A stretch of DNA of 39,743 nt from the NCBI GenBank assembly GCA_011051925.1, contig DRKE01000239.1, forward strand, positions 1-39,743, in the 5' to 3' direction. How positions within the stretch are numbered: the first letter of the stretch is position 1; each line of letters opens with the position of its first letter. Below the pieces are notes generated by a model, which saw only the letters and a program-made list of their open reading frames with translations, ran no database searches and was not told where the DNA came from. The position numbers and the translations under genes are program-made. The DNA comes from Deltaproteobacteria bacterium. GTDB taxonomy: Bacteria > Myxococcota_A > UBA9160 > UBA4427. Positions 13,975 to 31,720 of the stretch are shown here, piece after piece.

Positions 13975-14206
13975 GCCGGAGGGTATCGACCCGACGGCAG
14001 GCTGGCCTGAGAGGCTATGCTGGGTCTGACGCCGCCGATCGGATCGATCGGGGATCTCCAGCCGGTTCCGGACTGCCGGTCGCTTCGACTTCCGCTGGAA
14101 CGATTCCGCCGAGATGGGCCGTCGGCGTCCTCCATGCCGGACCCATCCCGTCCGTTGCGACGGACTGCACGAACCATGAACCGCGAACAGAGAAGGAGCC
14201 GTTTTC

Positions 14207-15235: not shown

Positions 15236-15422
15236 TGGCCCGGTCGGCGGGTCGGGGATTCATCGGATCCCGTCTCGAAGGGAAGCCGGGTCCCCGAAGA
15301 TCGGCCTTCGCCTTCGCTGCGGATCGGCCGATGATGAGGCGACCCGAGGCCGACCTCCGGACCCGATGGTGCGGTGGATGGCTCGGTATCCGGGCGGATC
15401 GGCTCGGAGGTGGGGAGTGGCA

Positions 15423-17246: not shown

Positions 17247-17386
17247 CATTTCGGCGATCCGAGCCTCCGATGGAGGAAACCGGCTTCGAGCGGGTCCTTT
17301 TCCGGCTGCGGATGCACTTCGAGGGGGCCCTGCTCGACCATCCCCCGCCCGCACCGGCACGACACGGCGGCGTGTGCAGAGGTTCC

Positions 17387-17887
17387 CTAGAGCGTCGGGT
17401 CGAGCAGGACCTCGGTCCGGTCGTGCTCGATGACGCCCCAGTCGCCGAGTTCGTCCGCGCCGAGTTCGCATTCGACGACGCGAAGGACGCCATTGTTGAA
17501 CTCGATCCGGGTCCACGCGCCGCCATGGTCCGATTCGAACTGGATGAAGGATCCCGGCTCGACGAATCGGGCGATCGGCTCGAAGAAACGGGCCATCGCG
17601 CGTGCCGGCAATTCGTTCATCATGCCCTCACGCCCGATCGAACTCACACCTCCATCGGGAATCTCGTGGACGATGACGTGTTCTCCCAGGCCGATCACCG
17701 AACGGATCGCGCCCGCGAGGGTCGTGGCCGAAACCAGATCCCGGTACGCGGCGGGCTTCTCATGGATGCCCCGGGCGAGGAAGACGGCTTCCGTCGGAAA
17801 CGCGGATTTGAGGGCTTCGATCGCCGCTCGTTCTCCCCCGGCGCTCATTCGAAACTCCGATTTCTCGATCCAGACCGCGCTTCCCAT
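17387..17887 (-). CDS. hypothetical protein (166 aa, no recognised domain)
   Basis: Balanced amino-acid composition, in contrast to the Arg/Ser/Pro-rich overlapping frames. No signal peptide or TM segment. No motif I can assign. Confidence 0.5.
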   Translation of the reverse strand: MGSAVWIEKSEFRMSAGGERAAIEALKSAFPTEAVFLARGIHEKPAAYRDLVSATTLAGAIRSVIGLGEHVIVHEIPDGGVSSIGREGMMNELPARAMARFFEPIARFVEPGSFIQFESDHGGAWTRIEFNNGVLRVVECELGADELGDWGVIEHDRTEVLLDPTL

Positions 17888-18134
17888 GTCGTCACTCCGA
17901 TTTGCGTGCTGGTCTGCTGTCCCCTGGGGCTTCCGGAGCCGTCGGGTGCGGGCCAGTATGAATCCACTCGGATCGTCGGAGTCCCGTCTTGAGTCCAGGC
18001 CTTCAAAGTTCGCGGCAACCGTCGCTCGTCCGGCCTCGGGCGTCTACCGTCTGGATCCGGATCCGCAACGGATTGCATAGTGGCCCGTCGCCGTCTGCGA
18101 CCCGGAGGCAGGGCTGGAAGAGAGGAAATCGGAT

Positions 18135-20603
18135 TTGCCCGAATCAGCATCCAGGACGGCCGACCCGAGACCGCTTGCCGGTGTTCGCGTCCTCGATCTG
18201 GCCGACGAGAAAGGTGAATTGGCGGGACGGATCCTCGCGGATCTGGGCGCGGAGGTCGTTCGGGTCGAGGCACCCGGCGGCGCGCGGTCCCGGCGGATTC
18301 CTCCCTTTGCCGGGAAGCACAGCCTCTACTTCGCGATCCGGAACACGAACAAGCTCGGCATCGTCCTCGATCTCGAGAGCGATGCGGGCCGGGTGAGACT
18401 GCTCGACCTCGCCTCACGGGCCGACGTGTTGATCGAATCGGAACGTCCCGGCCGCATGGCCGAGCTCGGTCTCGCGCCGGAGGATCTGTCCCGGCGATTT
18501 CCCCATCTGGTCGTCTTGTCGATCTCGGATTTCGGCCAGACGGGTCCCTATCGGGATTGGGTGGCGACGGATTCGACCCTCTGTGCGATCGCGGGGATGC
18601 AATGGAAGGCGGGCACGCCCGATCGGGAGCCCCTCTTCACGCCTGCCGCGATGAATCATGACATCGGTGGAATCATGGGGGCCTTCGCGGCCCTCGCTGC
18701 ACTGCATCAGAGGGAGCGGGACGGGTTCGGACAGACGATCGATCTCTCGGTTCTCGAAGCCGTGGCGCAGCAGACGGACTGGGCCTTCTCCAACGCCTCG
18801 ATGATCGAGGCGAAGGGTCAGGACAGCTCGACCGTTCGGAACGGATCGGGTCCCATCTACAAGATCATCCGCTGCCGGACGGGATTCGTCCGGCTCGTCA
18901 TCATGTCGCCACGCCAATGGCATGCCATGCGGGATTGGCTCGGAAACCCGGACTATCTCCAGGATCCGAAATACGACAGCTTCCTGGGCCGGATGGAGAT
19001 CGCCGATGCGCTCAACGTCATGGTGGGCGACCTGTTCTCGACGATGGACCACGAGGAGGTATCCCGCGAGGCGCAGAAAAGGGGAATCGTGTGTACGCCC
19101 GTCCTGGCGCCCGGCGAAGTCCTGGCGAACGAGCATTTCCGATCCCGAGGGACCTTCGTTCCAGGTGAGTTCGCGCGGGGCCAGACAGGGCCGATCGCGT
19201 CGGGCTTCTTTGAACTCGATCGTCGGCGCCTCGGCTACCGGTTCCGTCCACCCGAGCTCGACGAACATGCGGAGCGGATCGGAGAGACGTTCTGGCGCGA
19301 GCCCCGATCCGTCCCGACGGCGAAACGACCGCCGCCCTCGCGGCCCTTCGAGGGGCTTCGCGTTCTCGATTTCGGGATCGGAGGCGTGGGTGTCGAGGCG
19401 GGGCGTCTTTTCGCGGAATACGGGGCCGACGTGATCAAGATCGAGAGTCGGACCTATCCCGACTTCATTCGCGTCGTGATGTCGACCGAGATGAGCGCTT
19501 CGTTCGCTTCTTCGAACCGGTCGAAGCGGGGCTTCGGCGTGGACATCAAGTCGGAGGCGGGACGCGCGCTCGTCGAGGAACTCGTGAAGCGCGCCGATGT
19601 CGTCTTCGAGAACAATTCGACCGGCACGATGGAGGCGCTGGGTCTCGGTTACGAGCGGTTGAGAGAGTTGAATCCCCGGATCGTGATGGCGAGCAGCCAG
19701 CTTCTGGGGGATCACGGCGCCTGGGCCGATTGGATCGGGTATGGGCCGAGTACCCAGCCGATCGGCGGGCTCGTCCATCTCTGGGATTATGCCCGCTCGA
19801 CTTCCTCGAAGGACGGGGAGGTCGGGGATCCGGAACCGGCGGGGGCAGGTTCCATCTTCCCCGATCATCTCGCGGGCCGTCTGCTCGCGATCGGGGCCCT
19901 GGCCGCGCTGATCCGGCGGTCGCGAACGGGGCGGGGCGGGCACGCGACGGTCGCTCAGGCCGAAGTCGTCGCGAACATCCTCGCGGATCAGCTGTTGAAG
20001 GAGGGGGTCGATCCCGGTAGCGTCGTTCCTCGTGGCAACCGCAGCGAACGGGGCGCACCATGGGGCGCCTACCGTTGTGCACGAGGGAATGGGGAAAAGG
20101 AGAGCCGAAGCGGGGGCACGAGCGAAGAGTGGATCGCGATCACGATCCGCGACGATGCGGAGTGGGAGCGGCTGCGAGCCGCGATGGGCGATCCCGATTG
20201 GGCCTCCGATCCGATCTATTCGACCGCGGAGGGCCGGCAAGCCGCGCATGACGCGATCGATGAGCGGCTTTCCGAATGGACGGGCGCCCAGTCCGCGCGG
20301 GCGCTGACGGCGACGCTCCAGATGTTCCAGGTACCGTCGGCGCCGATGTTCACGGCGCGGGACCAGCTCCACGATCCGCATTTCCAGGCCCGGGGATACG
20401 GACGTTGGATCGATCAGCAGGGGATCGGCTGGATGGCCTTCGAAGGTCCCGCTTTCCGCGCGAGCGGGATGCCGGACGTCCGGATCAGCCAGGCCCCGCT
20501 GATCGGAGAACACACACGGGAAATCGCACGTGAGCTCCTCGGGCTGGCCGAGTCCGAGATCGACGAGCTGATCGCGGAAGGCATCCTCGAAATCACGAGT
20601 TGA
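18135..20603 (+). CDS. tandem-fused family III CoA-transferase (two CaiB/BaiF-type modules in one 822-aa polypeptide)
   Basis: Module 1 starts LAGVRVLDLADEKGELAGRILADLGAEVVRVEAPGG and contains ISDFGQTGPY. Module 2 starts FEGLRVLDFGIGGVGVEAGRLFAEYGADVIKIESRTYPD and ends with the family-typical PLIGEHT. The TTG start at 18135 is preceded by AGAGGA. Confidence 0.85.
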   Translation: MPESASRTADPRPLAGVRVLDLADEKGELAGRILADLGAEVVRVEAPGGARSRRIPPFAGKHSLYFAIRNTNKLGIVLDLESDAGRVRLLDLASRADVLIESERPGRMAELGLAPEDLSRRFPHLVVLSISDFGQTGPYRDWVATDSTLCAIAGMQWKAGTPDREPLFTPAAMNHDIGGIMGAFAALAALHQRERDGFGQTIDLSVLEAVAQQTDWAFSNASMIEAKGQDSSTVRNGSGPIYKIIRCRTGFVRLVIMSPRQWHAMRDWLGNPDYLQDPKYDSFLGRMEIADALNVMVGDLFSTMDHEEVSREAQKRGIVCTPVLAPGEVLANEHFRSRGTFVPGEFARGQTGPIASGFFELDRRRLGYRFRPPELDEHAERIGETFWREPRSVPTAKRPPPSRPFEGLRVLDFGIGGVGVEAGRLFAEYGADVIKIESRTYPDFIRVVMSTEMSASFASSNRSKRGFGVDIKSEAGRALVEELVKRADVVFENNSTGTMEALGLGYERLRELNPRIVMASSQLLGDHGAWADWIGYGPSTQPIGGLVHLWDYARSTSSKDGEVGDPEPAGAGSIFPDHLAGRLLAIGALAALIRRSRTGRGGHATVAQAEVVANILADQLLKEGVDPGSVVPRGNRSERGAPWGAYRCARGNGEKESRSGGTSEEWIAITIRDDAEWERLRAAMGDPDWASDPIYSTAEGRQAAHDAIDERLSEWTGAQSARALTATLQMFQVPSAPMFTARDQLHDPHFQARGYGRWIDQQGIGWMAFEGPAFRASGMPDVRISQAPLIGEHTREIARELLGLAESEIDELIAEGILEITS

Positions 20604-20675
20604 CGGCGGGATTGCGGACGGGGCGATCGGGCAGGCCCTGCGCGGGAAGAGTCGAACAGGACGGGAGGATCGGAG

Positions 20676-21533
20676 ATGGATGATTTCAGGGGCCGCGTCG
20701 CGGTCGTGACCGGAGCGGCGAGTGGAATCGGTCTGGGCGTCACCCGCCGCTTCCTCGACGAGGGAATGAAGGTCGTCATGGCCGATGTGGAAAAGGAGCG
20801 TCTCGATCACGAGGTCGCGGAACTCGAAGCGGCGGGTCACGACGTCCTGGGGGTCGTCTGCGACGTACGGGACCCGGATGCCGTGGCCGACCTCGCCGAC
20901 CGGACGATGTCGCATTTTGGCAGCGTGCATGTCGTCATGAACAATGCCGGCGTCGCACCGGGTGGTCCGATGCTCGATGCCACGCCGGCCGACTGGCGCT
21001 GGATCGTCGACGTGAACGTTCTCGGCGTCGCCCATGGAATCTCGATCTTCGGTCCGATCCTCCGGGACGCGGGCCGGGGCCACATCATCAATACGGCTTC
21101 CGAAGCGGGCCACGTGACGAGCGCCGTGCTCGGTATGTATTGCGCGACGAAACACGCCGTCGTCGGAATGACGGAGTCCCTCTATCGCGAACTCGAAGGC
21201 AGCGGGATCGGTGTCCATTGCCTGTGTCCGAATCTGGTCACGACCCGGATCTTCCATTCCGAGCGCAACCGGGAGGATCCGGGCGAGATGAGCGCCTCCC
21301 AGACGGCAGCCATGGCCGTTCTGCGCGAGGCGATCCAATCGATGGGAATCGGGGTGGAGCAGGTCGCGGGCGACGTCATGGATGCACTTCGCAACGACCG
21401 GTTCTGGATCTTCACCCACGAATTGACGACCCGTGCCCTCGCGTCGCGCTACCGGGACATCGAGGCGGGTCGCAACCCTGGCAATCCCTACGAAGGGCTC
21501 GGGGAGCTCACGGAATTGTCGGAATTGAAATGA
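20676..21533 (+). CDS. SDR family oxidoreductase
   Basis: Contains VVTGAASGIGLG, NNAGV and the catalytic YCATK. 285 aa. Lies 72 nt downstream of the fused CoA-transferase on the same strand. Confidence 0.85.
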   Translation: MDDFRGRVAVVTGAASGIGLGVTRRFLDEGMKVVMADVEKERLDHEVAELEAAGHDVLGVVCDVRDPDAVADLADRTMSHFGSVHVVMNNAGVAPGGPMLDATPADWRWIVDVNVLGVAHGISIFGPILRDAGRGHIINTASEAGHVTSAVLGMYCATKHAVVGMTESLYRELEGSGIGVHCLCPNLVTTRIFHSERNREDPGEMSASQTAAMAVLREAIQSMGIGVEQVAGDVMDALRNDRFWIFTHELTTRALASRYRDIEAGRNPGNPYEGLGELTELSELK

Positions 21534-21619
21534 CGAGACCCGAGGACAGGGCGGCCATCATGACCGGCGGTGGGGCCGTCATGCCCGTCTGAGGTCCGGA
21601 TTTCCCGATTCCGACCGAT

Positions 21620-23275
21620 GTGCCACCATTCCATCCGATGACGATGAGACAGCTCCTGCTCGCGCGCGCGAACGACGATTCGCCCGCCCTCTATTTCGAG
21701 GACCAGACCTGGACCTGGCGGGAGGTCTTCCAGGCCTGCTGCGATCGGGCCGATGCGTTTCTTGCGTGGCGTCGTCCCGGCCCCTTCCATGTGGGCGTGT
21801 TGCTCGAGAACGTTCCCGAGTACCTCTTCCTGAGCGGTGCGGCCGCTCTCTCCGGCGCGACCCTGGTCGGGATCAACCCCACGCGACGTGGTGCCGGTCT
21901 CGAGCGGGATGTCCGGCATACGGATTGCCAGATCCTCGTGACCGAGGATCGCCATGCGTCTCTTCTCGAAGGTCTCGATCTCGGCATCCCCGATGATCGT
22001 CGCTTCGACATCGCCTCTCCGGAATGGGCCGAAGCGCTCGCGGGTCATCGGGGCGCGGACACGCCCGAGATCGAAGAGGATCCGAACGCGACCTACATGT
22101 TGATCTTCACGTCGGGAACGACCGGTGAGCCGAAGGCGGCGATCTGCTCATCCGCCCGGGTCGCATTCGGCGGGCGGATGCTCGCGCAGATGCGCGGTCT
22201 GCGATCCGACGATGTCGGCTATCTCGTCATGCCACTCTTCCATTCGAATGCCCATATCGCGGGTATCGCGCCGATCCTCTCGGTTGGCGGTTCCTGGGCG
22301 ATGCGGCGAAGGTTCTCGGCATCGGGTTTCCTGCCGGACGTTCGACGGTATGGCGTCACGTATTTCAACTACGTCGGCAAGCCGCTCACCTATATCCTGG
22401 CGACGCCTGCAGCCGATGACGATGCGGAGAATCCGCTTCGGATCGCTTTCGGGAACGAGGCCGCGGAACAGGACATCGCCCGTTTCGCCGAGCGATTCGG
22501 TTGCGACGTGATCGATGCCTACGGTTCGACCGAGGGGGGGATCTCGATCACGAGGACACCCGACACGCCCTCCGGTGCCCTGGGTGTCGCGCCGCCCGGC
22601 ACGCTGATTCTCGATCCCGAGACGGGCGTCGAATGCCCGAGAGCGGAATTCGACGAGCACGGCCGGATCCTGAACGCCGACGAAGCGATCGGGGAGATCG
22701 CGAATCGCGAATCAGCACCTCAATTCGAGGGGTATTGGCGAAACGACGAGGCGAACGTCGAACGGACACGCGATGGGATCTACTGGAGTGGGGACCTCGG
22801 CTATCGGGATGCCGATGGCTTCTTCTATTTCGCGGGGCGGAACATGGACTGGTTGCGGGTCGACGGCGAGAACATCGCGGCCGGGCCGATCGAGCGGATC
22901 CTTTCACGCCATCCCGCAGTCGCCCTGGCCGCGGTCTACGCGGTTCCGAATTCCGATGTCGGGGATGACTGCATGGCATCGCTGATCCTGAGGCCGGGTG
23001 AAGAATTCGACCCCACGGATTTCGCTACCTTCCTCTCGAAGCAGGCCGATCTCGGGACGAAGATGATGCCTCGCTACATCCGCGTTGCGACCGAGCTGCC
23101 TTCGACCGAGACGAACAAGATCCTGAAGCGGGTGCTGCGTGAGGAGCGCTGGGAGTGCGAGGATCCGGTCTGGATCCGGGACGGGGACGGCTATCGTCCC
23201 CTCGGCTCCGAGGATCGCGGGGCGATCCGGTCGGAATTCCAGTCGCGAGGCCGTCTCGCCGAAATCGAGCGTTGA
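21620..23275 (+). CDS. AMP-dependent acyl-CoA synthetase/ligase (FadD-like)
   Basis: Contains the AMP-binding motif LIFTSGTTGEPKAA, plus YGSTEGG, SGDLGYRDADGFFYFAGR and a C-terminal TETNKILKRVLR. The track gives a GTG start at 21620. The ATG at 21638 (MTMRQLL) is an equally plausible start. Confidence 0.85.
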   Translation: MPPFHPMTMRQLLLARANDDSPALYFEDQTWTWREVFQACCDRADAFLAWRRPGPFHVGVLLENVPEYLFLSGAAALSGATLVGINPTRRGAGLERDVRHTDCQILVTEDRHASLLEGLDLGIPDDRRFDIASPEWAEALAGHRGADTPEIEEDPNATYMLIFTSGTTGEPKAAICSSARVAFGGRMLAQMRGLRSDDVGYLVMPLFHSNAHIAGIAPILSVGGSWAMRRRFSASGFLPDVRRYGVTYFNYVGKPLTYILATPAADDDAENPLRIAFGNEAAEQDIARFAERFGCDVIDAYGSTEGGISITRTPDTPSGALGVAPPGTLILDPETGVECPRAEFDEHGRILNADEAIGEIANRESAPQFEGYWRNDEANVERTRDGIYWSGDLGYRDADGFFYFAGRNMDWLRVDGENIAAGPIERILSRHPAVALAAVYAVPNSDVGDDCMASLILRPGEEFDPTDFATFLSKQADLGTKMMPRYIRVATELPSTETNKILKRVLREERWECEDPVWIRDGDGYRPLGSEDRGAIRSEFQSRGRLAEIER

Positions 23276-23490
23276 CCGTGGCAGGGTCCCGCAGAGGTCT
23301 CGAAGGGAGATGACATGACATCCGGAATCGATCCGTCGGAGATCGTTGCCTGTGCCCTGCGTCCCGCCGGAAGCTGGAGTCATCTGGGATCGCTCATCGG
23401 GTTCGTCGTGGTCGCGTGGTTCGTTTCTCCCGCGCGGACGCGGCGAGCCGGTCGGACGGGCTGAGCCGACCCCGCGGCTGGCCCCGTGCC

Positions 23491-24315
23491 CTACGGCTCG
23501 CCCCCCAATCGACGTTCGATCTCGAGTGCATCACGCAACGCGGCGACGTCGTGGGTGCGGATGTAGTCGACGCCGTGTCTGGCCGCGTGGAGTTCGGCAG
23601 CCAGGGTGGCCGGGCCGATCGATTCCATCCCGCTTCCCGTGATCACGCGGAGAAAGGACTTTCTGGAAACCGAGATCAACGTCGGCAGGCCGAAACGGAT
23701 GCCGAGTTCCGGCAGCCGCCTGAGGACTTCGAGCGATGAATCGGGTCGGTTGCCGAGGAAGAAACCCATCCCGGGATCGATGATCAATCGGTCCTCGCGA
23801 ATCCCGGCTCGAACGAGTCGATCGAGTCGTGCCGGAAAGAAGCGATCGATCGATTCGAGAACCGCTTCCGGCGTCGCATCGGTTCGCACGGCGCGTTCGC
23901 CTTCGAGCAGGGAATGGACGATGACCAGGCGGGCGTCGGAGACCGCGAGAGTCGGATAGAGATCGGGGTCGGGAAAACCGCGAACGTCGTTGAGCATGGC
24001 CGCTCCGGCCCCGATCGCGAATCGCAGGACATTCGGATCGGTGGCGTCGACGGAGACCGGGATTCCCTTCGCCGACAACGCCTCGAGAACCGGAGCCAGG
24101 CGCTCGATCTGGACGCTTGCGGAGACGGAATCCGCATCGGGATGGCTCGACGCCGGTCCGAGTTCGATCAGGTCGGCCCCCGCGTCGTAGAGTCCGAAGG
24201 CGTGGTCGATCGCCGCTTCGGGTTCGATGAATCGCCCGCCGTCCGAAAACGAGTCCCGGGTGATGTTCACGATGGCGACGATCCGTGGGGACCTCTCGTT
24301 CGTCACGTTGGTCAC
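23491..24315 (-). CDS. folP: dihydropteroate synthase, Sul1/Sul2-like clade
   Basis: 274 aa with VNITRDSFSDGGRF, LGPASSHPDA, LNDVRGFPDPDLYP, DPGMGFFLG, VSRKSFL and GPATLAAELHA...IRTHD. These blocks match Sul1/Sul2 as I remember them, rather than the canonical FolP blocks (GGESTRPGA, DPGFGFGK). Confidence 0.9.
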   Translation of the reverse strand: MTNVTNERSPRIVAIVNITRDSFSDGGRFIEPEAAIDHAFGLYDAGADLIELGPASSHPDADSVSASVQIERLAPVLEALSAKGIPVSVDATDPNVLRFAIGAGAAMLNDVRGFPDPDLYPTLAVSDARLVIVHSLLEGERAVRTDATPEAVLESIDRFFPARLDRLVRAGIREDRLIIDPGMGFFLGNRPDSSLEVLRRLPELGIRFGLPTLISVSRKSFLRVITGSGMESIGPATLAAELHAARHGVDYIRTHDVAALRDALEIERRLGGEP

Positions 24316-24530
24316 ATCGATCTCCCGGATGGCGCGCCGGAATCTGGAACCCGGTGGTGAGATTTTACATCGCTTTTACGTAGCAGGGGGACGGGTGTGT
24401 TCTCCCGAACTCCGATTTTGGCTACACCTCGGATCGTGTCTGGTCGCAATCAGACTCATGTCATTTGCACCGACCCCCCTCCGATCAGCCGCGCCGAGAC
24501 GCGGCCCCTTTGTGAGAGTCTGAACCGAAT

Positions 24531-25493
24531 ATGAATGCTGTGTTCGAGCTGGATCCGCGGGAGCTTTCGACGCCTTCCGCCGGAGAAGAGCGTGCCGACG
24601 GCGAGCGTGCCGCTGGCGCGGCGGAGAATGGCACGATCGGATCCGCGGGTCGTGTCGAGAGCCTCCTGGAACGTGATGCGGGGAGGGAGGAATCGTGCGA
24701 ACGGTCCGGACGATGGCTCCGGTACAAGGTCGATCGGCGCGCCGTCGCCTATGTCCATGCGATGCTGGGCCTCCATGTGGCCGTCTTCTTCCTTGCGCCG
24801 ACCTGGCTGGCGGTCGTCTGCGTCGCTCCCCTCGCGATTGGCAGCATGTTCGTCGCGGCAATCAACCATCATCACCAGCATTTCAACACCTTCCACTCGG
24901 CGTGGATGAATCGGGTCTTCGACATCGCCCTCTCGCTGCAGACCGGGATCGCGCCCTATGCGTGGGTCCTGCATCACAACCTGGGGCATCATGTCAACTA
25001 TCTGAAACAGCGGCCGCATGAACACCCCGATGAATCCCGCTGGACCCGTCGGGATGGTTCGCAGATGGGCCGGATCGAGTACACGATCGATCTCCTCCTG
25101 CATCACCAGATCGATATCATCCGGGTCGGGCGGCGCTATCCGAAATACCTGCGCGCCTTCTTGTTGATGAAGCTGCCGCTCTGGTCGATTCTCGGGCTCG
25201 CGCTCTACACCAACCCGGTGAATGCCTTCCTGGCCTTCCTGCTGCCCGGCTTCATCACGCTCGTCCATACTTCATGGGTGACCTATGGACATCATGCCGG
25301 CCACTATCCGACCAACCATTACGATGCCAGCGTGAGCAACACGAATCCTCTCTTCAACTACCTGACCTGCAACCTCGGCTATCACACGGCGCATCACAAG
25401 CGTCCCGGCGTCCACTGGTCCCAGCTGCCGAAGATCCACGAGGAGATCAAGGATCGGATTCCGCCGCATCTGATCGAGACCCGCTTCTGGTAG
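24531..25493 (+). CDS. membrane fatty acid desaturase family protein
   Basis: Three histidine boxes: HHHQH, HHNLGHH and HTAHHKRPGVHW. Several hydrophobic segments. 320 aa. Confidence 0.8.
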   Translation: MNAVFELDPRELSTPSAGEERADGERAAGAAENGTIGSAGRVESLLERDAGREESCERSGRWLRYKVDRRAVAYVHAMLGLHVAVFFLAPTWLAVVCVAPLAIGSMFVAAINHHHQHFNTFHSAWMNRVFDIALSLQTGIAPYAWVLHHNLGHHVNYLKQRPHEHPDESRWTRRDGSQMGRIEYTIDLLLHHQIDIIRVGRRYPKYLRAFLLMKLPLWSILGLALYTNPVNAFLAFLLPGFITLVHTSWVTYGHHAGHYPTNHYDASVSNTNPLFNYLTCNLGYHTAHHKRPGVHWSQLPKIHEEIKDRIPPHLIETRFW

Positions 25494-25563
25494 GTCGGGG
25501 TCGCTGATCCTTCGTCAGGGGGACGCCCGGCAGCGACGGCAGACGACATGGATCCGGTTCGGA

Positions 25564-25899
25564 TCAGGGACGCTGCGGGTCGTTGATGCGATCGTCGGGA
25601 TCGACCTGGATGCGCCCGTCGACGATCCGAACGGCGAAACACGGGATCGGGAAGCCGTCCGGGTTGTCGGGATCGAATCCCGTCCGGACGTCGAAGGGCC
25701 ATCCGTGGGCCTTGCACACGATCACGCAGTCCCGGAATTCACCCTCGGAGAGCGGGAAGCCCGCATGGGGACAGTCGTCTTCCATCGCGTAGACCCGGTC
25801 GCCCATCCGGTAGAGGCCGAGATCGATGCCGTTCACCTGGACCCGGAGGCCTCGGTCCGAGGGGATCTCGTCGAGCCGGGCGACGTCGACATAGGCCAA
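25564..25899 (-). CDS. Rieske [2Fe-2S] domain protein, NirD-like small ferredoxin
   Basis: Contains CPHAGFPLSEG...CKAHGWPFD (CxH...CxxH). The TTG start at 25899 is preceded by GGAGAG at 8 nt and gives about 111 aa, the usual size. The remaining 244 upstream codons of the 355-aa track ORF are Arg/Pro-rich and not protein-like. Confidence 0.75.
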   Translation of the reverse strand: MAYVDVARLDEIPSDRGLRVQVNGIDLGLYRMGDRVYAMEDDCPHAGFPLSEGEFRDCVIVCKAHGWPFDVRTGFDPDNPDGFPIPCFAVRIVDGRIQVDPDDRINDPQRP

Positions 25900-26084
25900 G
25901 GGGTGATCTCTCCAGGCGGCCGGATGGAATCCGGAAGATGCGGATCGCAGGGTGCCCCAATCCCGAGGCGGGGACCACTCCGGCCGTTTCCGGTCGTTCG
26001 CCGGATCTGCGACACGCGCTGACAGTGGTCGCGCGACCGGAGGCCGGGCGCACGTGCGGATCCGCTCGTCCTTCGCGAGGGCCG

Positions 26085-26393
26085 TCAGTGCTGGGCGAGG
26101 GCCGCCGGCATCGACAGGGAGGGGCCGGTCGAGGTGACGACACACGTCTCGAGACCGGCCTGGATCGCGTCGCTCGAACAATCCATCGTCGTCGGTCCCA
26201 TCAGACCGTGGAATCGCGGGTTGCTGCCGAGTGTCGCGAATCTCTCGAAGACCATGTCGAGCTGGAGATTCGTCACGGCCGCGAACCGGGAAGCGTCGAG
26301 GGACTGGCCCTGGTCCTGGGGATCGGCTGAAGCCAGACTGCTCCAGCAGAGCGCGATCAGCGCCATGAATAGAATCCTGGGAATGGGTCGCAT
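26085..26393 (-). CDS. small secreted protein of unknown function (102 aa)
   Basis: Signal-peptide-like N-terminus MRPIPRILFMALIALCWSSLASA/DPQ. The RBS AAGGAG lies about 11 nt upstream. Codons are GC3-rich. The mature part has two Cys (DCSS...ETC). Confidence 0.55.
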   Translation of the reverse strand: MRPIPRILFMALIALCWSSLASADPQDQGQSLDASRFAAVTNLQLDMVFERFATLGSNPRFHGLMGPTTMDCSSDAIQAGLETCVVTSTGPSLSMPAALAQH

Positions 26394-26661
26394 ACCGGGG
26401 GGCTCCTTTGGGGGGACCTATCGGATGCTCGATGGATTGCTTTAGGCGTTCTTCCGCACGGATTGGAAAATTCCCGCGGACGGCCGGAAGAAAACGGGCA
26501 GCGATCGCGTGGGAACGCCGTGAGGGCCCGTTCGCCCCCTCGGATTGCAACGATTCGCTGCGGGGATGTCGGGGGCAACCCGGACCGCATCGGGGAGAAG
26601 GCTCGATGCCGGTCGAGCACGAGGGCGCCATCGAAGGATCCGATGGGTGCCGGGCGAGCGC

Positions 26662-27759
26662 TCAGAGGGAGACGATGTGTCCTTCGGCTGGATCGATGTG
26701 GCCACCGAGAAGATCGAGATAGATCCTCTCCAGCGCCTGTGGCCCCCGATGTCGGATGACCGCCAGCCAATCATCGCTGAAGGCGGAGAACTCGTCCCAG
26801 GACCGGCCGAGCCGTTCCTGCAACCCGGACCCACCCCAGTCTTCCGTTCGTTTCACGACCCGTGCGGGGGCAAAGAAGAACTCGGGTGTCGGACCGGGCA
26901 GATCCTCCGAAACCGGCTTCGATTCCCAATGGGTCGCCCCCACCGAGCAGGAATAGCGGAGTCGATCGCCCAGGCGCCCGTGCACGGTCGCGACGACATC
27001 ACGGTTGCCGGCCATGTCGACCAGGACGGCCGGCGACGTGTCCGTGAGGGTTTCCAGCGCATCGTAGGAAACGACTTCGTCGTAGCACCCGAGCCGTTCC
27101 ACGAAATCGCGGTTCCGGGCGGAGGTCAGCCCGATGACGCTCCCCCGGGCCCGTCGGTGGAGGAGGTGGGCAAGGGCGATCGAAGTCTTGCTGGACGCGC
27201 TGGTGAGGATTGAACGCTCCGCACCGAAGAAATCCTTCTCGTCGAGAAGGTCGTCGATGAGGAAGGAAGTCATGAAGAGACCACGGAGGAGCATGATCTG
27301 ATCTTCCCGTTCGGCGTGATGGAGGGGATCCCGCTCGACGAAACCGTAGGTCCGATAGACGGGGGCATGTCCGGCCCGGTGGGCCGCGCCATCGACCACC
27401 CCGGTCGGATGGGGCCGGGCGTCGATGACCAGATGGCGACTCATCGGAAAGAAGCCGAAGCAGCGGGTGCCGACGGGGACGTCGGGACTCCGGGACTCGA
27501 CCACGTCGCCGAACCCCATGGCCGGAATCCGGCCCCATCGCCCGGGTCCGGGAAAGAACCCCCAGTAGTCGAGGAGGTCCCCGGCAGCCGCGTACGAGAC
27601 GTTGTTCGAGGTCAGCGCGAAACGGTCGACGGCGAAGAGGACCTGGCCCTCGCCGAGGGTGCCGATCGGCTCGCCCGGTACACAGCGACACGCCCGGAAA
27701 TCATCCCGGTCCACCTGGAAATCGAGCGGAGCAGAGGTCGGATCGGTCGGATCGGTCAT
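26662..27759 (-). CDS. DUF2855 family protein
   Basis: About 365 aa from the ATG at 27759 (MTDPTDPTS...). The sequence VDRFALTSNNVSYAAAGDLLDYWGFFPGPGRWGRIPAMGFGDVVESRSPDVPVGTRCFGFFPMS matches my recollection of the DUF2855 signature (MDR-like fold). Confidence 0.75.
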   Translation of the reverse strand: MTDPTDPTSAPLDFQVDRDDFRACRCVPGEPIGTLGEGQVLFAVDRFALTSNNVSYAAAGDLLDYWGFFPGPGRWGRIPAMGFGDVVESRSPDVPVGTRCFGFFPMSRHLVIDARPHPTGVVDGAAHRAGHAPVYRTYGFVERDPLHHAEREDQIMLLRGLFMTSFLIDDLLDEKDFFGAERSILTSASSKTSIALAHLLHRRARGSVIGLTSARNRDFVERLGCYDEVVSYDALETLTDTSPAVLVDMAGNRDVVATVHGRLGDRLRYSCSVGATHWESKPVSEDLPGPTPEFFFAPARVVKRTEDWGGSGLQERLGRSWDEFSAFSDDWLAVIRHRGPQALERIYLDLLGGHIDPAEGHIVSL

Positions 27760-27920
27760 GGGAGAATGGGCTCCTCGGGTCGGGCGGTGAGGGAGAACGG
27801 AGGGTAGGGCAGGCGGCCTGTTCGATCCGGCGACCCCCGATCCCCCCAGGGGCCAAAGCGGGGTCGGGGGTCGGGAGGGGGAGGGGCAACCGTCCGGCCG
27901 AAAGGACGATTTCTTCCGGC

Positions 27921-27970
27921 AATCATGAAAACGACATTGATTTTCATTTTCTTCGAACATAAACTGCCGA
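27921..27970. promoter_or_regulatory. AT-rich Fur-box-like operator overlapping a sigma70-like promoter, in the divergent DUF2855/bfd intergenic region
   Basis: This is the only strongly AT-rich 50-bp block in this part of the window: aatcATGAAAAcgacattgaTTTTCATtttcttcgaacataaactg. It holds a perfect 7-nt inverted repeat, ATGAAAA (27925-27931) and TTTTCAT (27941-27947), and GATAAT-like hexamers (GAAAAC, GACATT, GATTTT). TTGATT (27938-27943), a 16-nt spacer and TAAACT (27960-27965) resemble -35/-10 elements facing bfd. Confidence 0.35.
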
Positions 27971-28104
27971 TCTGTCCAAGCACGGCCGGCCCGGAGGCCA
28001 GCCCGTCTTCTTCCGGGGCGCTTCAGCTTCCGGAACCCGCTTTGAAACGTCGTCGGAACGACCGAGAACGACAGAGAGAAGGACAGAAGGACACCGAGGA
28101 ACGG

Positions 28105-28329
28105 ATGCTCGTCTGCCATTGTCGCGGAATCACGGATCGACAGATCCGCCGCCTCGTCCGGAACGGGGCGACGTCGACGCGCGATGTCGCGCGAGCGACG
28201 GGTGCCGGTCTGCGCTGTGGCGGATGCCGATCCAACGTGAAGAAGATCGTCGACGAAGCGGTCGCGAGCGATCTCCAGGAATCACGTCGGACGACCCTCC
28301 TCGATCGCATCGTTTCCGTCGAGGGCTGA
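28105..28329 (+). CDS. bfd: bacterioferritin-associated ferredoxin-like (2Fe-2S)-binding protein
   Basis: 74 aa starting MLVCHCRGITDRQIRRLVRNG...GAGLRCGGCRSNVKKIV, with the four-Cys Bfd pattern CxC...CxxC. GAGGA lies 5 nt upstream of the ATG at 28105. Confidence 0.75.
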   Translation: MLVCHCRGITDRQIRRLVRNGATSTRDVARATGAGLRCGGCRSNVKKIVDEAVASDLQESRRTTLLDRIVSVEG

Positions 28330-28453
28330 AGCCCGCCCCCGCCGTGCCCCCGGAACCACGGGGTCCGGCCCCCCGCCGTTCATGCTCCCGGATTCCAGCG
28401 TCCAGCCGGGCCCGCACCCCTCCCAGCGCAGGCCGGCGGAATGGCCGGATCTA

Positions 28454-28495
28454 CCTCGGGCATCGTTCCTCGGGCATTCTCCCTCGGGCGTTGTC
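28454..28495. repeat. three tandem 14-bp direct repeats (CCTCGGGCNTNNTC)
   Basis: cctcgggcatcgtt (28454-28467), cctcgggcattctc (28468-28481) and cctcgggcgttgtc (28482-28495) lie head to tail in the bfd-downstream spacer, about 80 nt upstream of the small ORF at 28574. Confidence 0.7.
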
Positions 28496-28573
28496 CGGAT
28501 CGACAGACGCGCCAGCCGACGGAAGATTGGGGGCCCCGCCCCCGTCCTGACCTTTCGACGATCGGAGGATTCC

Positions 28574-28741
28574 ATGGGAAAGACCTGCGCCTGGTGCGGC
28601 ACGCTGCTTCGAGCCATTTCGGGCACCACCATTCCGACGAGTCAGGCCCTCTGCCAGGGATGCCTCGACGAACTCGAGAGCGCGCTCTCGTCCCGGGGAC
28701 TCGACGTGGATCCGTCGCAGCCGCGAACGACACCACACTAG
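28574..28741 (+). CDS. small zinc-ribbon-like protein (55 aa, CxxC...CxxC)
   Basis: Sequence MGKTCAWCGTLL...ALCQGCLDEL. A strong RBS (GGAGGA) lies 5 nt upstream of the ATG. GC3 is about three quarters by manual count. The upstream part of the 119-aa track ORF is not protein-like. Confidence 0.45.
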   Translation: MGKTCAWCGTLLRAISGTTIPTSQALCQGCLDELESALSSRGLDVDPSQPRTTPH

Positions 28742-28783
28742 TTCCGGATCGTCCGGCGTCGACGTTCCGAGACCGCTCGCTCC

Positions 28784-30037
28784 TCAGCTCCGGAGCAGGT
28801 CCTTCGCGATCGCGCGGATCTGCATCTCGTCCGTGCCCGCGTAGATCTGCAGCACTTTCGAGTCGCGTGCGAGCTGCTCGACGACGTACTCCGACATGTA
28901 GCCGTTGCCGCCATAGACCTGGACCGCCTCCATGGCGACCTCGACGGCGGCCCGGGCCGCGTAGAGCTTCATGGCCGACGCCTCGGCCAGGGTCATCGTC
29001 CTGCCGTTCGCGGAGAGTTCGATCGTGCGGAAGACCAGGTTCTGGAGGTTCATGCGTGCGACCTCCATGCGGGCGAGCTTGTCCTGGATGAGCTGATACT
29101 CGCCGATGGGGCGCTCGAACTGCACCCGTTCTCGCGCGTATTTCAGCGACAGTTCGAGGCAGCGATCCACGATGCCGAGGGCCATGGCAGCCACGCCCGT
29201 TCGTTCGGTCTGGAAGGTCCCCTTGGCGCCTTCGCGTCCGCCCCCTTGCTTTCCGAGCGCTTCTTCGCCCCCCAACAAGCGGTCCATGCCGACGCGCACG
29301 TCGGTCAGGAAGAGTTCGCCCGTCGGCGACGAATGCATGCCCATCTTGCGCAGGGCACCCGTCTGCTCGAAACCCGGCATGCCGCGGTCGAGCACGAAGT
29401 TCAGGATCTTCCGGTCACGAAGATCCACGCCTTCCTCTTCGAGCTTGCAGATGAAGACCGTCGTGTCGGCATGGGGGCCGTTGGTGATGAAGGTCTTCGA
29501 CCCGTTCAGGACGAACTCGTCTCCTTCCCTGCGTGCCGAGGCCCGCATTCCACCGAAGGCGTCGGAACCCGATCCGGGCTCCGTGATCGCCCAGGCACCG
29601 ATCTTTTCGAGGGTCAGGATGTCGAGGGCCCAGCGCTCCTTCTGTTCGATCGTTCCCTTTGAAAGGATGGCCGAGGCCGTGAGGCCCACGCTGACGCCCA
29701 TGGCGGTCACCATGCCCGGGCAGTAGCGACACAATTCGATGATGGGAATGAGTGTCGCAGCGGCCTGGTCGGCGCGCGCGGCCGGATCGATTGCTCCATC
29801 CGCGGATTTCGCCCTGGCCTCCTTTCGGGAGAGGCCCGCCTTCTCGGCTTCGATCTGCTTCCGGAATCGCGCACGCGCCATCTCGTCCATGCCGAAGGCC
29901 GCGTACATCTTGCGAAGGATGTCGTAGGGGGGCAGATCACCGTGCTCGAGTTCCTCGACGTGCGGCGCTACTTCGGCCTCCACGAATCGGCGTACGGCGT
30001 CGCGGATCATCAACTGGGACTCGCTCCATTCGATCAT
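28784..30037 (-). CDS. acyl-CoA dehydrogenase
   Basis: 417 aa. The N-terminus ESQLMIRDAVRRFVEAEVAP, the segment AITEPGSGSD and the C-terminal IYAGTDEMQIRAIAKDLL are typical of ACADs. Confidence 0.9.
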   Translation of the reverse strand: MIEWSESQLMIRDAVRRFVEAEVAPHVEELEHGDLPPYDILRKMYAAFGMDEMARARFRKQIEAEKAGLSRKEARAKSADGAIDPAARADQAAATLIPIIELCRYCPGMVTAMGVSVGLTASAILSKGTIEQKERWALDILTLEKIGAWAITEPGSGSDAFGGMRASARREGDEFVLNGSKTFITNGPHADTTVFICKLEEEGVDLRDRKILNFVLDRGMPGFEQTGALRKMGMHSSPTGELFLTDVRVGMDRLLGGEEALGKQGGGREGAKGTFQTERTGVAAMALGIVDRCLELSLKYARERVQFERPIGEYQLIQDKLARMEVARMNLQNLVFRTIELSANGRTMTLAEASAMKLYAARAAVEVAMEAVQVYGGNGYMSEYVVEQLARDSKVLQIYAGTDEMQIRAIAKDLLRS

Positions 30038-31548: not shown

Positions 31549-31720
31549 CGTTCCGATCTCCAAGGGCGGGTCTCGATCAGGGGGTGGGAGGATAGCGGGA
31601 TCGGGTATCGTCTCGACCTGCCCCTTCCAGGTCCGCGTCGTCCGGTTGCCTCCAGGGGGCGCGTACCCCGAAAATCCGGACGGCCCCGAAAAGACGCCCG
31701 AGAATAAAGGAGAACCTCCC

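What the first reader, a model, noticed from the sequence alone, without database searches (positions are those of the whole stretch)
23491..24315. Sul1/Sul2-like (sulfonamide-resistance clade) dihydropteroate synthase in an apparently native, non-mobile chromosomal context
The 274-aa product does not look like a housekeeping FolP. It carries VNITRDSFSDGGRF, LGPASSHPDA (canonical FolP: GGESTRPGA), LNDVRGFPDPDLYP, DPGMGFFLG (canonical: DPGFGFGK; encoded at 23752-23778), VSRKSFL and GPATLAAELHA..IRTHD. These are the blocks I remember from mobile Sul2 (VNITSDSFSDGGRY, LGPASSNPDA, LNDIRGFPDAAFYP, DPGMGFFLG, VSRKSFL, GAATLAAELAA, IRTHE) and from Sul1. I aligned residues 12-135 by eye against Sul2 as I recall it, and 72 of 124 positions are identical. 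That is far more than I would expect against E. coli FolP. The first Phe of the GFF motif is, to my recollection, the residue reported to exclude sulfonamides in Sul enzymes. The flanks are an acyl-CoA synthetase and a desaturase. There is no integrase, ISCR, transposase or glmM fragment, and codon usage is GC3-rich like the neighbours. This therefore looks like a resident gene. It could be an environmental relative or reservoir of mobile sul genes, and could confer intrinsic sulfonamide insensitivity.
Basis: partly seen in the sequence, partly recalled or inferred. Interest (0 to 1): 0.7.

Follow-up and report, generated by a model that had tools for sequence, protein, structure and literature searches.

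The report
Resident Sul-type dihydropteroate synthase gene
This is a normal chromosomal folate-pathway gene of an uncultured Myxococcota-like bacterial lineage whose enzyme carries the same active-site insertion that makes the plasmid-borne Sul1/2/3 enzymes immune to sulfonamide drugs; it is a cousin, not the source, of the clinical resistance genes, and chromosomal genes of this kind have already been described in other bacteria.

Summary
Window 23491-24315 (-) encodes a 274-aa dihydropteroate synthase (DHPS). It is far closer to Sul2, Sul3 and Sul1 (278, 266 and 242 bits; 55, 49 and 48% identity) than to any canonical DHPS (150 bits or less; 32% to E. coli FolP). It carries the two-residue alpha-6 insertion with M183/F185/L187, matching Sul2 M177/F179/L181.

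The gene is resident. The window has no mobile-element genes, tRNAs or flanking repeats, and composition is uniform. The same neighbourhood recurs in 27 distinct genome loci. All 17 informative metagenome loci found with the neighbouring desaturase as probe also carry the gene, so no empty site was seen. dN/dS is 0.19.

It is not a mobile sul allele: the NCBIfam Sul cut-offs are not met, and no plasmid gene reaches 60% identity. It is not a progenitor either. Sul2 nests with Parvibaculum-type genes (73-77% identity), and this clade branches separately.

Sulfonamide insensitivity is inferred from published mutagenesis and from MIC tests of other chromosomal Sul-motif folP genes. It was not tested here. 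Whether a second, canonical folP exists in the genome could not be checked.

Chromosomal Sul-motif folP genes were described in 2019, so this is a new member of a known kind, of modest interest.

The parts
23491..24315 (-). Sul-type dihydropteroate synthase gene (274 aa, GTG start)
   Evidence: ORF and translation. PF00809 190.8 bits and TIGR01496 235.3 bits, both above cut-off. Best PDB matches are Sul2/Sul3/Sul1. AlphaFold model pLDDT 84, and the top 15 Foldseek hits are all Sul2/3/1. dN/dS 0.19 against the syntenic orthologue.
23752..23778 (-). Alpha-6 'Sul motif' D180-P-G-M183-G-F185-F186-L187-G188, with a two-residue insertion relative to canonical DPG(F/I)GF--GK
   Evidence: Alignment with Sul1/2/3 and EcFolP. 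Invariant in 13 clade members. The model places a short helix over G-F-F-L.
23761..23763 (-). Codon of Phe185, equivalent to Sul2 Phe179, Sul1 Phe178 and Sul3 Phe177
   Evidence: Residue mapping. Phe-to-Gly abolishes resistance in Sul1-3 (PMC10328974).
24133..24162 (-). Loop-2 segment L52-GPASSHPDA-61 (canonical FolP: GGESTRPGA); S57 equals Sul2 S52
   Evidence: Sul1 has AASHPDA and Sul2 has ASSNPDA.
24321..24326 (-). GGGAGA Shine-Dalgarno-like motif, 5 nt upstream of the GTG start
   Evidence: Read directly from the sequence.
24316..24530 (.). Intergenic region shared by the divergent DHPS and desaturase genes. It holds lineage-conserved blocks: GTAAAAGCGATGTAAAA at 24363-24379, GAGGTGTAGCC at 24420-24430 and TTGCGACCAGAC at 24438-24449 (minus-strand reading).
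   Evidence: The core block is present in 26 of 27 loci. No consensus RNA structure on either strand and no Rfam hit. It is most likely a promoter/operator region.
24531..25493 (+). Fatty-acid desaturase gene, the divergent partner of the DHPS gene throughout the lineage
   Evidence: PF00487. Adjacent and divergent in the genome loci and in all 17 informative desaturase-probed metagenome loci.
21620..23275 (+). AMP-binding acyl-CoA synthetase gene, convergent with the DHPS gene (syntenic context)
   Evidence: PF00501/PF13193. Conserved downstream of the DHPS in L005, L007, L008, L020, L022, L024, L025, L030, L032 and L034.
25564..25914 (-). Small Rieske [2Fe-2S] protein gene (syntenic context; the 355-aa mechanical ORF is probably over-extended)
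   Evidence: PF00355. The orthologues are 116-136 aa. Conserved in most loci.

Best explanation
The gene encodes a functional dihydropteroate synthase of the Sul type, the DHPS subfamily with a two-residue insertion in helix alpha-6. It is a long-standing, vertically inherited chromosomal gene of an uncultured lineage whose MAGs are labelled Deltaproteobacteria or Myxococcota.

It condenses 6-hydroxymethyl-7,8-dihydropterin pyrophosphate with pABA, as any DHPS does. [quoted passage not shown] The enzyme should therefore accept pABA but bind sulfa drugs poorly, making the organism intrinsically insensitive.

Shown here: family placement, motif, conserved ligand residues, fold, purifying selection, residency and lineage-wide synteny.

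Inferred: catalytic activity, sulfonamide insensitivity, and that this is the lineage's working and probably only DHPS.

It is neither a mobile sul allele nor the ancestor of sul1, sul2 or sul3.
For: Family placement:
- Sul2, Sul3 and Sul1 score 242-296 bits, against 150-155 bits for canonical DHPS.
- BLASTP identity is 54.6% to Sul2, 48.7% to Sul3 and 48.0% to Sul1, against 32.0% to EcFolP. The query is as close to Sul2 as Sul1 (53.9%) and Sul3 (52.1%) are.

Motif and ligand residues:
- M183/G184/F185/F186/L187 equal Sul2 M177-L181.
- N17, D90, N109, D180, K219, S220, R253 and H255 are conserved.

Fold: model pLDDT 84.1 and pTM 0.85. The top 15 Foldseek PDB hits are all Sul2/3/1 chains, with TM 0.83-0.93.

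Tree: the insertion-bearing sequences form one group (bootstrap 0.70 and 0.46 in two data sets). The query pairs with P0002 at 1.0 and lies in a 26-member clade at 0.78.

Residency:
- GC is flat at about 0.65 and GC3 matches the neighbours.
- There are no tRNAs, no mobile-element domains and no flanking repeats.
- No plasmid gene reaches 60% identity, and no clade member lies on a viral contig.
- A 20-kb stretch is syntenic with an orthologue 81% identical.
- The neighbourhood is conserved in 27 distinct genome loci.
- 17 of 17 informative desaturase-probed loci carry the DHPS.

Selection: dN/dS is 0.19.

Mechanistic precedent:
- Phe-to-Gly abolishes resistance in Sul1-3, and a Phe-Gly insertion makes EcDHPS resistant (PMC10328974).
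- Chromosomal Sul-motif folP genes of P. lavamentivorans and L. interrogans raise the sulfamethoxazole MIC in E. coli from 8 to at least 512 mg/L, and motif-less folP genes do not (PMC6335563).
Against: - No activity or MIC data exist for this protein or its clade.
- The gene is not in the classical ftsH-folP-glmM housekeeping locus that the alphaproteobacterial Sul-type genes occupy. This leaves room for an accessory role.
- Only about 10 kb either side of each relative could be read, so a second, canonical folP elsewhere in these genomes cannot be excluded.
- The trees are neighbour-joining only. Deep branching within the Sul-type group is unresolved, and monophyly of the insertion group has only moderate support.
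- The taxonomy rests on MAG labels, some of which are inconsistent ('uncultured Spirochaetaceae' for a few syntenic loci).
Confidence: 0.78

Rival explanations
1. Accessory second DHPS. The lineage keeps a canonical folP elsewhere, for example between ftsH and glmM. This Sul-type copy, acquired anciently at the base of the lineage, serves a special role. That role could be protection against a natural pABA or pterin antimetabolite, or a function co-regulated with the divergent desaturase.
For: - The gene lies outside the ftsH/glmM locus in every member of the clade, whereas most other Sul-type genes lie inside it.
- It forms a strictly conserved divergent pair with a desaturase, sharing a conserved intergenic control region.
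- It is the least conserved protein of its neighbourhood: 81% identity against 83-96% for the neighbours, in the comparison with L005.
Against: - No second Pterin_bind gene was seen in the window or in any fetched flank.
- The surrounding genes look like acyl-CoA and lipid catabolism, not a biosynthetic cluster.
- Conserved synteny alone does not show functional coupling.
- In the published Rhodobiaceae and Leptospiraceae cases, the Sul-motif folP is presented as the ordinary chromosomal folP gene in its usual locus, with no second copy described.
Confidence: 0.17
2. Recently acquired mobile sul gene: a horizontally transferred resistance determinant sitting on an unrecognised mobile element or a mis-binned contig.
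For: The protein resembles Sul2 more than any canonical FolP. JGI names its relatives 'dihydropteroate synthase type 2'.
Against: - NCBIfam Sul1/2/3 scores are about half the curated cut-offs.
- At least 5000 plasmid records match, all below 60% identity.
- No integrase, transposase, ISCR or glmM remnant. No tRNA. No flanking repeats.
- Native composition.
- The same locus recurs in dozens of diverged genomes, with no empty site.
- The same arrangement appears in an independent assembly.
Confidence: 0.02
3. An ordinary sulfonamide-sensitive housekeeping DHPS that merely shares ancestry with the Sul enzymes. On this view the insertion does not confer insensitivity in this protein background.
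For: - No phenotype was measured.
- The EcDHPS Phe-Gly insertion mutant was less resistant than true Sul enzymes, so protein background matters.
- Loop-2 and other residues differ from Sul2 (H58 for N53, D62 for A57).
Against: - All three alpha-6 residues shown by mutagenesis to matter (Met, Phe, Leu) are present and invariant in the clade.
- Two distant chromosomal members of the same insertion group both conferred an MIC of at least 512 mg/L.
- The model superposes on Sul2/Sul3 at 1.3-1.6 Å.
Confidence: 0.1

Closest known systems
Chromosomal Sul-motif folP ('folP*') of Rhodobiaceae (e.g. Parvibaculum lavamentivorans) and Leptospiraceae (Sanchez-Osuna et al. 2019, PMC6335563)
   Same: A resident chromosomal DHPS gene with the two-residue Sul insertion. 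It is native in composition and not on a mobile element. It belongs to the same insertion-bearing group in the tree. The expected phenotype is the same (MIC at least 512 mg/L in E. coli for the tested members).
   Different: - A different host lineage: MAGs labelled Myxococcota or Deltaproteobacteria.
- A different and strictly conserved locus (desaturase/Rieske | DHPS | AMP-binding/SDR/CoA-transferase) instead of ftsH-folP*-glmM.
- Only about 55% identical to the Parvibaculum-type proteins.
- A separate clade.
- No experimental data.
Plasmid-borne Sul2 (also Sul1 and Sul3); structures 7S2J/7S2K, 7S2L/8SCD and 7S2I (Venkatesan et al. 2023, PMC10328974)
   Same: The same alpha-6 sequence DPGMGFFLG with Met/Phe/Leu. 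The same pterin and pABA ligand residues. A near-identical predicted fold (TM up to 0.93). The query is as distant from Sul2 as Sul1 and Sul3 are.
   Different: - 48-55% identity only.
- Below the curated Sul HMM cut-offs.
- Not on plasmids or integrons, and no ISCR or delta-glmM signature.
- Not the nearest chromosomal relative of any of the three.
Canonical housekeeping FolP (E. coli b3177; TIGR01496, PRK11613)
   Same: The same Pterin_bind TIM-barrel domain and catalytic residues. It passes the general DHPS equivalog model TIGR01496.
   Different: - 32% identity.
- Has the two-residue insertion, Met for Phe188 and Leu in place of the Gly-Lys segment.
- Loop 2 is ASSHPD instead of ESTRPG.
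- Not next to ftsH/glmM.
Sul4
   Same: Also a sulfonamide-resistant DHPS, and reported in Myxococcota hosts as an acquired module (PMC12772301).
   Different: Sul4 lacks the two-residue insertion. The Sul4 HMM scores only 84.8 bits against this protein. Sul4 travels with a truncated folK and an ISCR element plus integrases, none of which is present here.

Membership tests
Dihydropteroate synthase (PF00809 Pterin_bind; TIGR01496 DHPS) | Full-length match above the curated cut-offs | tested here: met
   PF00809 190.8 bits (cut-off 25.5). TIGR01496 235.3 bits (cut-off 162.6).
Dihydropteroate synthase (PF00809 Pterin_bind; TIGR01496 DHPS) | Conserved pterin, pyrophosphate and pABA ligand residues (Ec N22, D96, N115, D185, K221, S222, R255, H257) | tested here: met
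   Query N17, D90, N109, D180, K219, S220, R253 and H255.
Dihydropteroate synthase (PF00809 Pterin_bind; TIGR01496 DHPS) | TIM-barrel fold | tested here: met
   Model with eight beta/alpha units, pTM 0.85. All 50 best Foldseek PDB hits listed are DHPS or Sul structures.
Dihydropteroate synthase (PF00809 Pterin_bind; TIGR01496 DHPS) | Catalyses DHPP + pABA to 7,8-dihydropteroate | not testable with these tools
   Needs an enzyme assay or complementation of delta-folP.
Sul-type DHPS (Sul1/2/3 and chromosomal 'folP*' with the Sul motif) | Two-residue insertion in alpha-6 giving G-F-F-L | tested here: met
   DPGMGFFLG against the Ec DPGFGF--GK.
Sul-type DHPS (Sul1/2/3 and chromosomal 'folP*' with the Sul motif) | The Phe, Leu and Met shown by mutagenesis and structure to exclude sulfonamides (Sul2 F179, L181, M177) | tested here: met
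   F185, L187 and M183. Invariant in 13 clade members. Roles as described in PMC10328974.
Sul-type DHPS (Sul1/2/3 and chromosomal 'folP*' with the Sul motif) | Closer in sequence and structure to Sul1-3 than to canonical DHPS, and grouping with insertion-bearing sequences | tested here: met
   The insertion set is one bipartition in both NJ trees, with bootstrap 0.70 and 0.46, which is moderate.
Sul-type DHPS (Sul1/2/3 and chromosomal 'folP*' with the Sul motif) | Confers sulfonamide resistance or has low sulfonamide affinity | not testable with these tools
   Precedent only: P. lavamentivorans and L. interrogans folP* gave an MIC of at least 512 mg/L.
Mobile resistance alleles sul1 / sul2 / sul3 (NCBIfam NF000294/5/6) | Score at or above the curated allele-family cut-off | tested here: not met
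   Sul2 295.9 against 575. Sul3 263 against 475. Sul1 241.8 against 600.
Mobile resistance alleles sul1 / sul2 / sul3 (NCBIfam NF000294/5/6) | Carried on plasmids, integrons or ISCR elements; for sul2, a truncated glmM downstream | tested here: not met
   No such genes or remnants in the 39.7 kb. No plasmid match at 60% or above. No repeats.
Published Rhodobiaceae-type folP* locus | ftsH (or tetR) - folP* - glmM gene order | tested here: not met
   No ftsH or glmM within 8 kb in any of the 27 distinct clade loci, whereas about 40 alphaproteobacterial-type loci have it.
Housekeeping (sole) folP of its genome | Only DHPS gene in the genome | not testable with these tools
   Only the 39.7-kb contig and about 10 kb of flank around each relative were readable.

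The most novel reading that the evidence does not exclude
The Sul-type gene is not the lineage's ordinary folP. It is a dedicated second DHPS, fixed as a divergent, co-regulated pair with a membrane desaturase through a conserved bidirectional control region. It has been kept for hundreds of millions of years because it resists a natural pABA- or pterin-mimicking antimetabolite. That would supply the missing natural selective agent for the pre-antibiotic origin of the Sul motif.
Probability: 0.08. Interest if true: 0.7.

Novelty: new member of a known kind. Interest (0 to 1): 0.3.

Why it matters
The gene adds a further lineage, with its own fixed chromosomal locus, to the environmental pool of DHPS enzymes that carry the sulfonamide-excluding Phe insertion.

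The wider survey made along the way points the same way. At least 471 GTDB species-representative genomes encode such an enzyme, and 73 of 127 aligned sequences (122 full-length relatives, mostly 50%-identity cluster representatives, plus the query and four references) carry the insertion. The Sul-type enzyme therefore looks like a large, old natural DHPS subfamily. The published picture of two source families (Leptospiraceae and Rhodobiaceae) is probably too narrow.

Two practical consequences follow:
- Metagenomic 'sul2-like' hits at 50-70% identity, such as the JGI 'type 2' labels, are mostly native genes and should not be counted as acquired resistance.
- Organisms of this lineage are predicted to be untouched by sulfonamide pollution.

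The gene does not change what is known about how sul1-3 work or where they came from.

Tried and rejected
1. **Structured RNA or riboswitch upstream of the gene.** I thought I saw compensatory hairpins around the conserved GGAAAACG and GTAAAA blocks. RNAalifold on 22 loci gave zero consensus pairs on either strand. Rfam gave nothing at gathering scores, nor at E up to 10. Rejected. The blocks are probably DNA-level signals.
2. **Sigma-70 promoter and intrinsic-terminator scans around the gene.** Nothing was found. This is uninformative for this kind of organism.
3. **Taxonomic names for the environmental 50%-identity clusters.** The listing of cluster members returned only generic names or none.
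4. **Viral-contig scan for the clade.** It returned three distant hits (33-48% identity) and no clade member.
5. **Flanking direct or inverted repeats as insertion scars.** Only short, imperfect matches at chance level.
6. **A second canonical folP in the same genome.** I considered using the remaining protein searches to look for one, but there is no way to restrict hits to a given MAG and only about 10 kb of flank is readable. Abandoned as not testable here.
7. **Progenitor of a mobile sul gene.** Rejected on identity and on tree position.
8. My reference window:23491-24312:- clipped the first codon, not the stop codon. Numbering in alignment A1 and in the model is therefore ORF numbering minus 1. 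No conclusion is affected.
Full report
**1. The observation**

The minus-strand ORF 23491-24315 exists, starts with GTG and encodes 274 aa. A GGGAGA Shine-Dalgarno-like motif lies 5 nt upstream. NCBI's deposited product (P0001) is 263 aa and would need an ATC start.

I took authentic reference sequences from public records: Sul2 from a Shigella plasmid, Sul3 from an E. coli plasmid, Sul1 from the PDB alignment of 7S2I, and FolP from E. coli K-12. The by-eye count of 72 identical out of 124 (residues 12-135 against Sul2) reproduces exactly, compared with 42 of 124 for EcFolP.

**2. What the protein is**

It is a full-length DHPS. PF00809 scores 190.8 bits and the general DHPS equivalog TIGR01496 scores 235.3 bits, above its cut-off of 162.6.

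It is much closer to the Sul enzymes than to canonical DHPS:

| Comparison | Sul2 | Sul3 | Sul1 | Best canonical |
|---|---|---|---|---|
| PDB phmmer, bits | 277.8 | 265.6 | 241.7 | 149.7 |
| NCBIfam, bits | 295.9 | 263 | 241.8 | 154.7 (E. coli-type) |
| BLASTP identity | 54.6% | 48.7% | 48.0% | 32.0% (EcFolP) |

The Sul4 model scores only 84.8 bits. Sul1-Sul2, Sul2-Sul3 and Sul1-Sul3 are 53.9, 52.1 and 43.4% identical. The query is therefore a fourth branch at about the same depth.

The residues that matter all align:
- M183, G184, F185, F186 and L187 correspond to Sul2 M177, G178, F179, F180 and L181.
- S57, K219 and S220 correspond to the Sul2 pABA contacts S52, K213 and S214.
- N17, D90, N109, D180, R253 and H255 correspond to the canonical pterin and pyrophosphate ligands.

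An AlphaFold2 model built on 13 clade sequences is confident (pLDDT 84.1, pTM 0.85) and places a short helix over G-F-F-L. The 15 best Foldseek matches in the PDB are all Sul2, Sul3 or Sul1 chains (TM 0.83-0.93, rmsd down to 1.3 Å), ahead of every canonical DHPS.

**3. How it should work**

Venkatesan et al. (PMC10328974) reported four relevant results:
- A Phe-to-Gly change restores sulfa binding and susceptibility in all three enzymes.
- The neighbouring Leu contributes to the effect.
- A laboratory-evolved Phe-Gly insertion makes EcDHPS resistant.

Sanchez-Osuna et al. (PMC6335563) showed that the chromosomal Sul-motif folP genes of Parvibaculum lavamentivorans and Leptospira interrogans raise the sulfamethoxazole MIC of E. 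coli from 8 to above 512 and to 512 mg/L. Motif-less folP genes from Rhodobacter and Chlamydia do not.

Because the query keeps Met, Phe and Leu and all the ligand residues, I infer that it is an active DHPS with low affinity for sulfonamides. This is an inference from precedent, not a result obtained here.

**4. Resident or mobile?**

Everything points to a resident gene.

- **The window is a whole contig.** It is an entire 39,743-bp MAG contig labelled 'Deltaproteobacteria bacterium'. An independent Logan assembly shows the same arrangement.
- **Composition is native.** GC is flat at about 0.65, and the gene's GC3 (0.76) lies within the neighbours' range.
- **There are no mobility signals.** The window has no tRNA, no Rfam family and no flanking repeats beyond chance.
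- **The neighbours are ordinary.** Pfam scans of the substantial ORFs found metabolic and housekeeping proteins: cNMP-binding, M48 peptidase, iPGM, two CoA-transferases, SDRs, three luciferase-like monooxygenases, a glutamate-synthase domain, ACAD, an FAD oxidoreductase, an ABC-F ATPase and a DEAD helicase. One 332-aa ORF (13210-14208, -) was only read by eye and looks like a membrane protein. There is no integrase, transposase, ISCR or glmM remnant.
- **It is not a known plasmid gene.** A tblastn search of 72,556 plasmids hit at least 5000 sul-bearing records, all below 60% identity.
- **It is not on viral contigs.** No clade member was found there.

The comparative evidence is the strongest.

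- **Closest orthologue.** A protein 81% identical (P0002, GCA_054014675.1) lies in a 20-kb stretch with the same gene order throughout.
- **Genome loci.** A GTDB scan found 471 species-representative loci encoding a relative. All 27 distinct loci at 60% identity or more carry labels of Deltaproteobacteria, Myxococcota or Myxococcales, apart from a few odd 'Spirochaetaceae' bin labels. All but one, a 3-kb contig, show the same neighbourhood of desaturase, Rieske protein, a 102-aa protein and DUF2855 on one side, then SDR and CoA-transferase, often with the AMP-binding ligase, a 166-aa protein and a glutamate-synthase domain, on the other. None has ftsH or glmM nearby.
- **Unbiased probe.** To avoid choosing loci by the DHPS itself, I probed JGI metagenome contigs with the neighbouring desaturase. 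All 17 loci with enough upstream sequence carry a Sul-type DHPS, divergent and immediately upstream. The other three end at a contig edge. No empty site was found.
- **Selection.** dN/dS against the syntenic orthologue is 0.19.

**5. Relation to the clinical genes**

I made two neighbour-joining trees. The first has 127 taxa and 200 bootstraps, and the second has 197 taxa with named genomes and 100 bootstraps.

- The insertion-bearing sequences form one group (bootstrap 0.70 and 0.46).
- The query pairs with P0002 at 1.0 and lies in a 26-member clade of the syntenic loci at 0.78-0.79.
- Sul2 nests with chromosomal genes in the ftsH-folP-glmM locus: an identical 288-aa protein in L079, L080 and L083 (77.5% identity, bootstrap 1.0), then Parvibaculum and L088 (71-73%, bootstrap 0.99).
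- Sul1 pairs with another environmental cluster (60.6% identity, bootstrap 0.87).
- Sul3 has no close relative in the set (56% or less).
- Deeper branching is unresolved.

The query's clade is therefore a cousin of the mobile genes, not their reservoir in the sense of a source. It also fails the curated allele-family cut-offs for Sul1, Sul2 and Sul3, so it should not be filed as any of them.

**6. How common is this kind of gene?**

- In an exhaustive search of 1.84 billion cluster representatives, 1236 matched at E of 1e-30 or better.
- I aligned 127 sequences: 122 full-length relatives (mostly the 50%-identity cluster representatives, plus a few closer hits), the query and four reference proteins. 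Of these, 73 carry the two-residue insertion.
- The GTDB scan gave 471 species.
- Most loci at 50-57% identity are alphaproteobacterial (Parvibaculum, Tepidicaulis, Rhizomicrobium, the PS1 clade, IMCC14465). In these the gene sits co-directionally between ftsH and glmM. This is the published folP* situation.
- JGI already names many relatives 'dihydropteroate synthase type 2'.
- Venkatesan et al. noted the GFF motif in hundreds of deposited DHPS sequences.

The concept is therefore known. What is new here is one more lineage, with a relocated but fixed locus.

**7. What remains open**

I could not determine whether these genomes also hold a canonical folP. The predicted phenotype does not depend on the answer, because Sul enzymes confer resistance in the presence of a sensitive FolP. 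The evolutionary reading, housekeeping gene against accessory copy, does depend on it.

The strictly conserved divergent pairing with a desaturase is compatible with either reading. So is the conserved intergenic region, which includes an invariant GTAAAA-N5-GTAAAA direct repeat. I tested whether that region folds as an RNA, and it does not.

**8. Verdict**

- **Observation:** confirmed.
- **Interpretation:** partly supported. The gene is Sul-type and resident. It is not a source of mobile sul genes, and insensitivity is inferred only.
- **Novelty:** a new member of a known kind.
- **Interest:** about 0.3.

Noticed in passing
L083:7890-9284, L079:3653-5381, L080:2891-4618: An identical 288-aa DHPS, 77.5% identical to Sul2, is the closest non-Sul2 relative I saw. 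It lies on DNA that is 99.86% identical in three MAGs binned to different taxa. In L083 it sits between ftsH and a full-length glmM. In L079 and L080 the glmM is cut to about 140-157 aa and the upstream genes are unrelated (SIR2 in one, Sel1/trypsin in the other). This looks like an independent, sul2-style capture of a folP*-glmM' module, with a candidate donor genome. The allele scores 467.9 bits on the Sul2 model, below the 575 cut-off. Mis-binning of short contigs is a caveat.
   Followed up: partly
L009:6413-10808; also L041, L042, L069: In these loci the Sul-type DHPS gene lies between ftsH and glmM but on the opposite strand to both. About 40 other loci have the usual co-directional ftsH-folP-glmM order. 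This could mark an in-situ replacement or an inversion of folP.
   Followed up: no
window 24363-24449 (within intergenic region 24316-24530): AT-rich blocks conserved across 26 of 27 loci in a 65% GC background: GTAAAAGCGNTGTAAAA (a direct repeat with 11-bp period), GGAAAACG, GCAGGTGTAGCC and TGCGACCAGACG. There is no consensus RNA fold on either strand and no Rfam hit. It is probably a shared promoter/operator for the divergent DHPS and desaturase genes. Many relatives also have GTGCTAGAAA just before the DHPS start, which the window lacks.
   Followed up: partly
window 17387-17887 (-) and 26085-26393 (-): Two small proteins (166 aa and 102 aa) have no Pfam family but are conserved in synteny across the lineage. 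The 166-aa protein is 95% identical in L005 and 69-86% identical in more distant genomes, which makes it better conserved than the DHPS itself.
   Followed up: no
window 24283-24315: The NCBI product for this gene (P0001) is 263 aa and begins MVAIVN, which implies an ATC start codon. The upstream GTG at 24315, with a GGGAGA motif 5 nt before it, and the 271-aa orthologue P0002 both favour the longer reading.
   Followed up: yes
window 14207-31761: The DHPS is embedded in a run of acyl-CoA and redox genes: three luciferase-like monooxygenases in the window, a family III CoA-transferase, SDR, an acyl-CoA ligase, a desaturase, a Rieske protein, DUF2855, ACAD and an FAD oxidoreductase. This looks like a lipid or hydrophobic-substrate catabolic island and has no evident link to folate metabolism.
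   Followed up: no
L012, L016, L030, L033: Four loci with the full Myxococcota-type synteny come from MAGs labelled 'uncultured Spirochaetaceae bacterium'. This is probably a labelling or binning problem in those records and not a real host difference.
   Followed up: no
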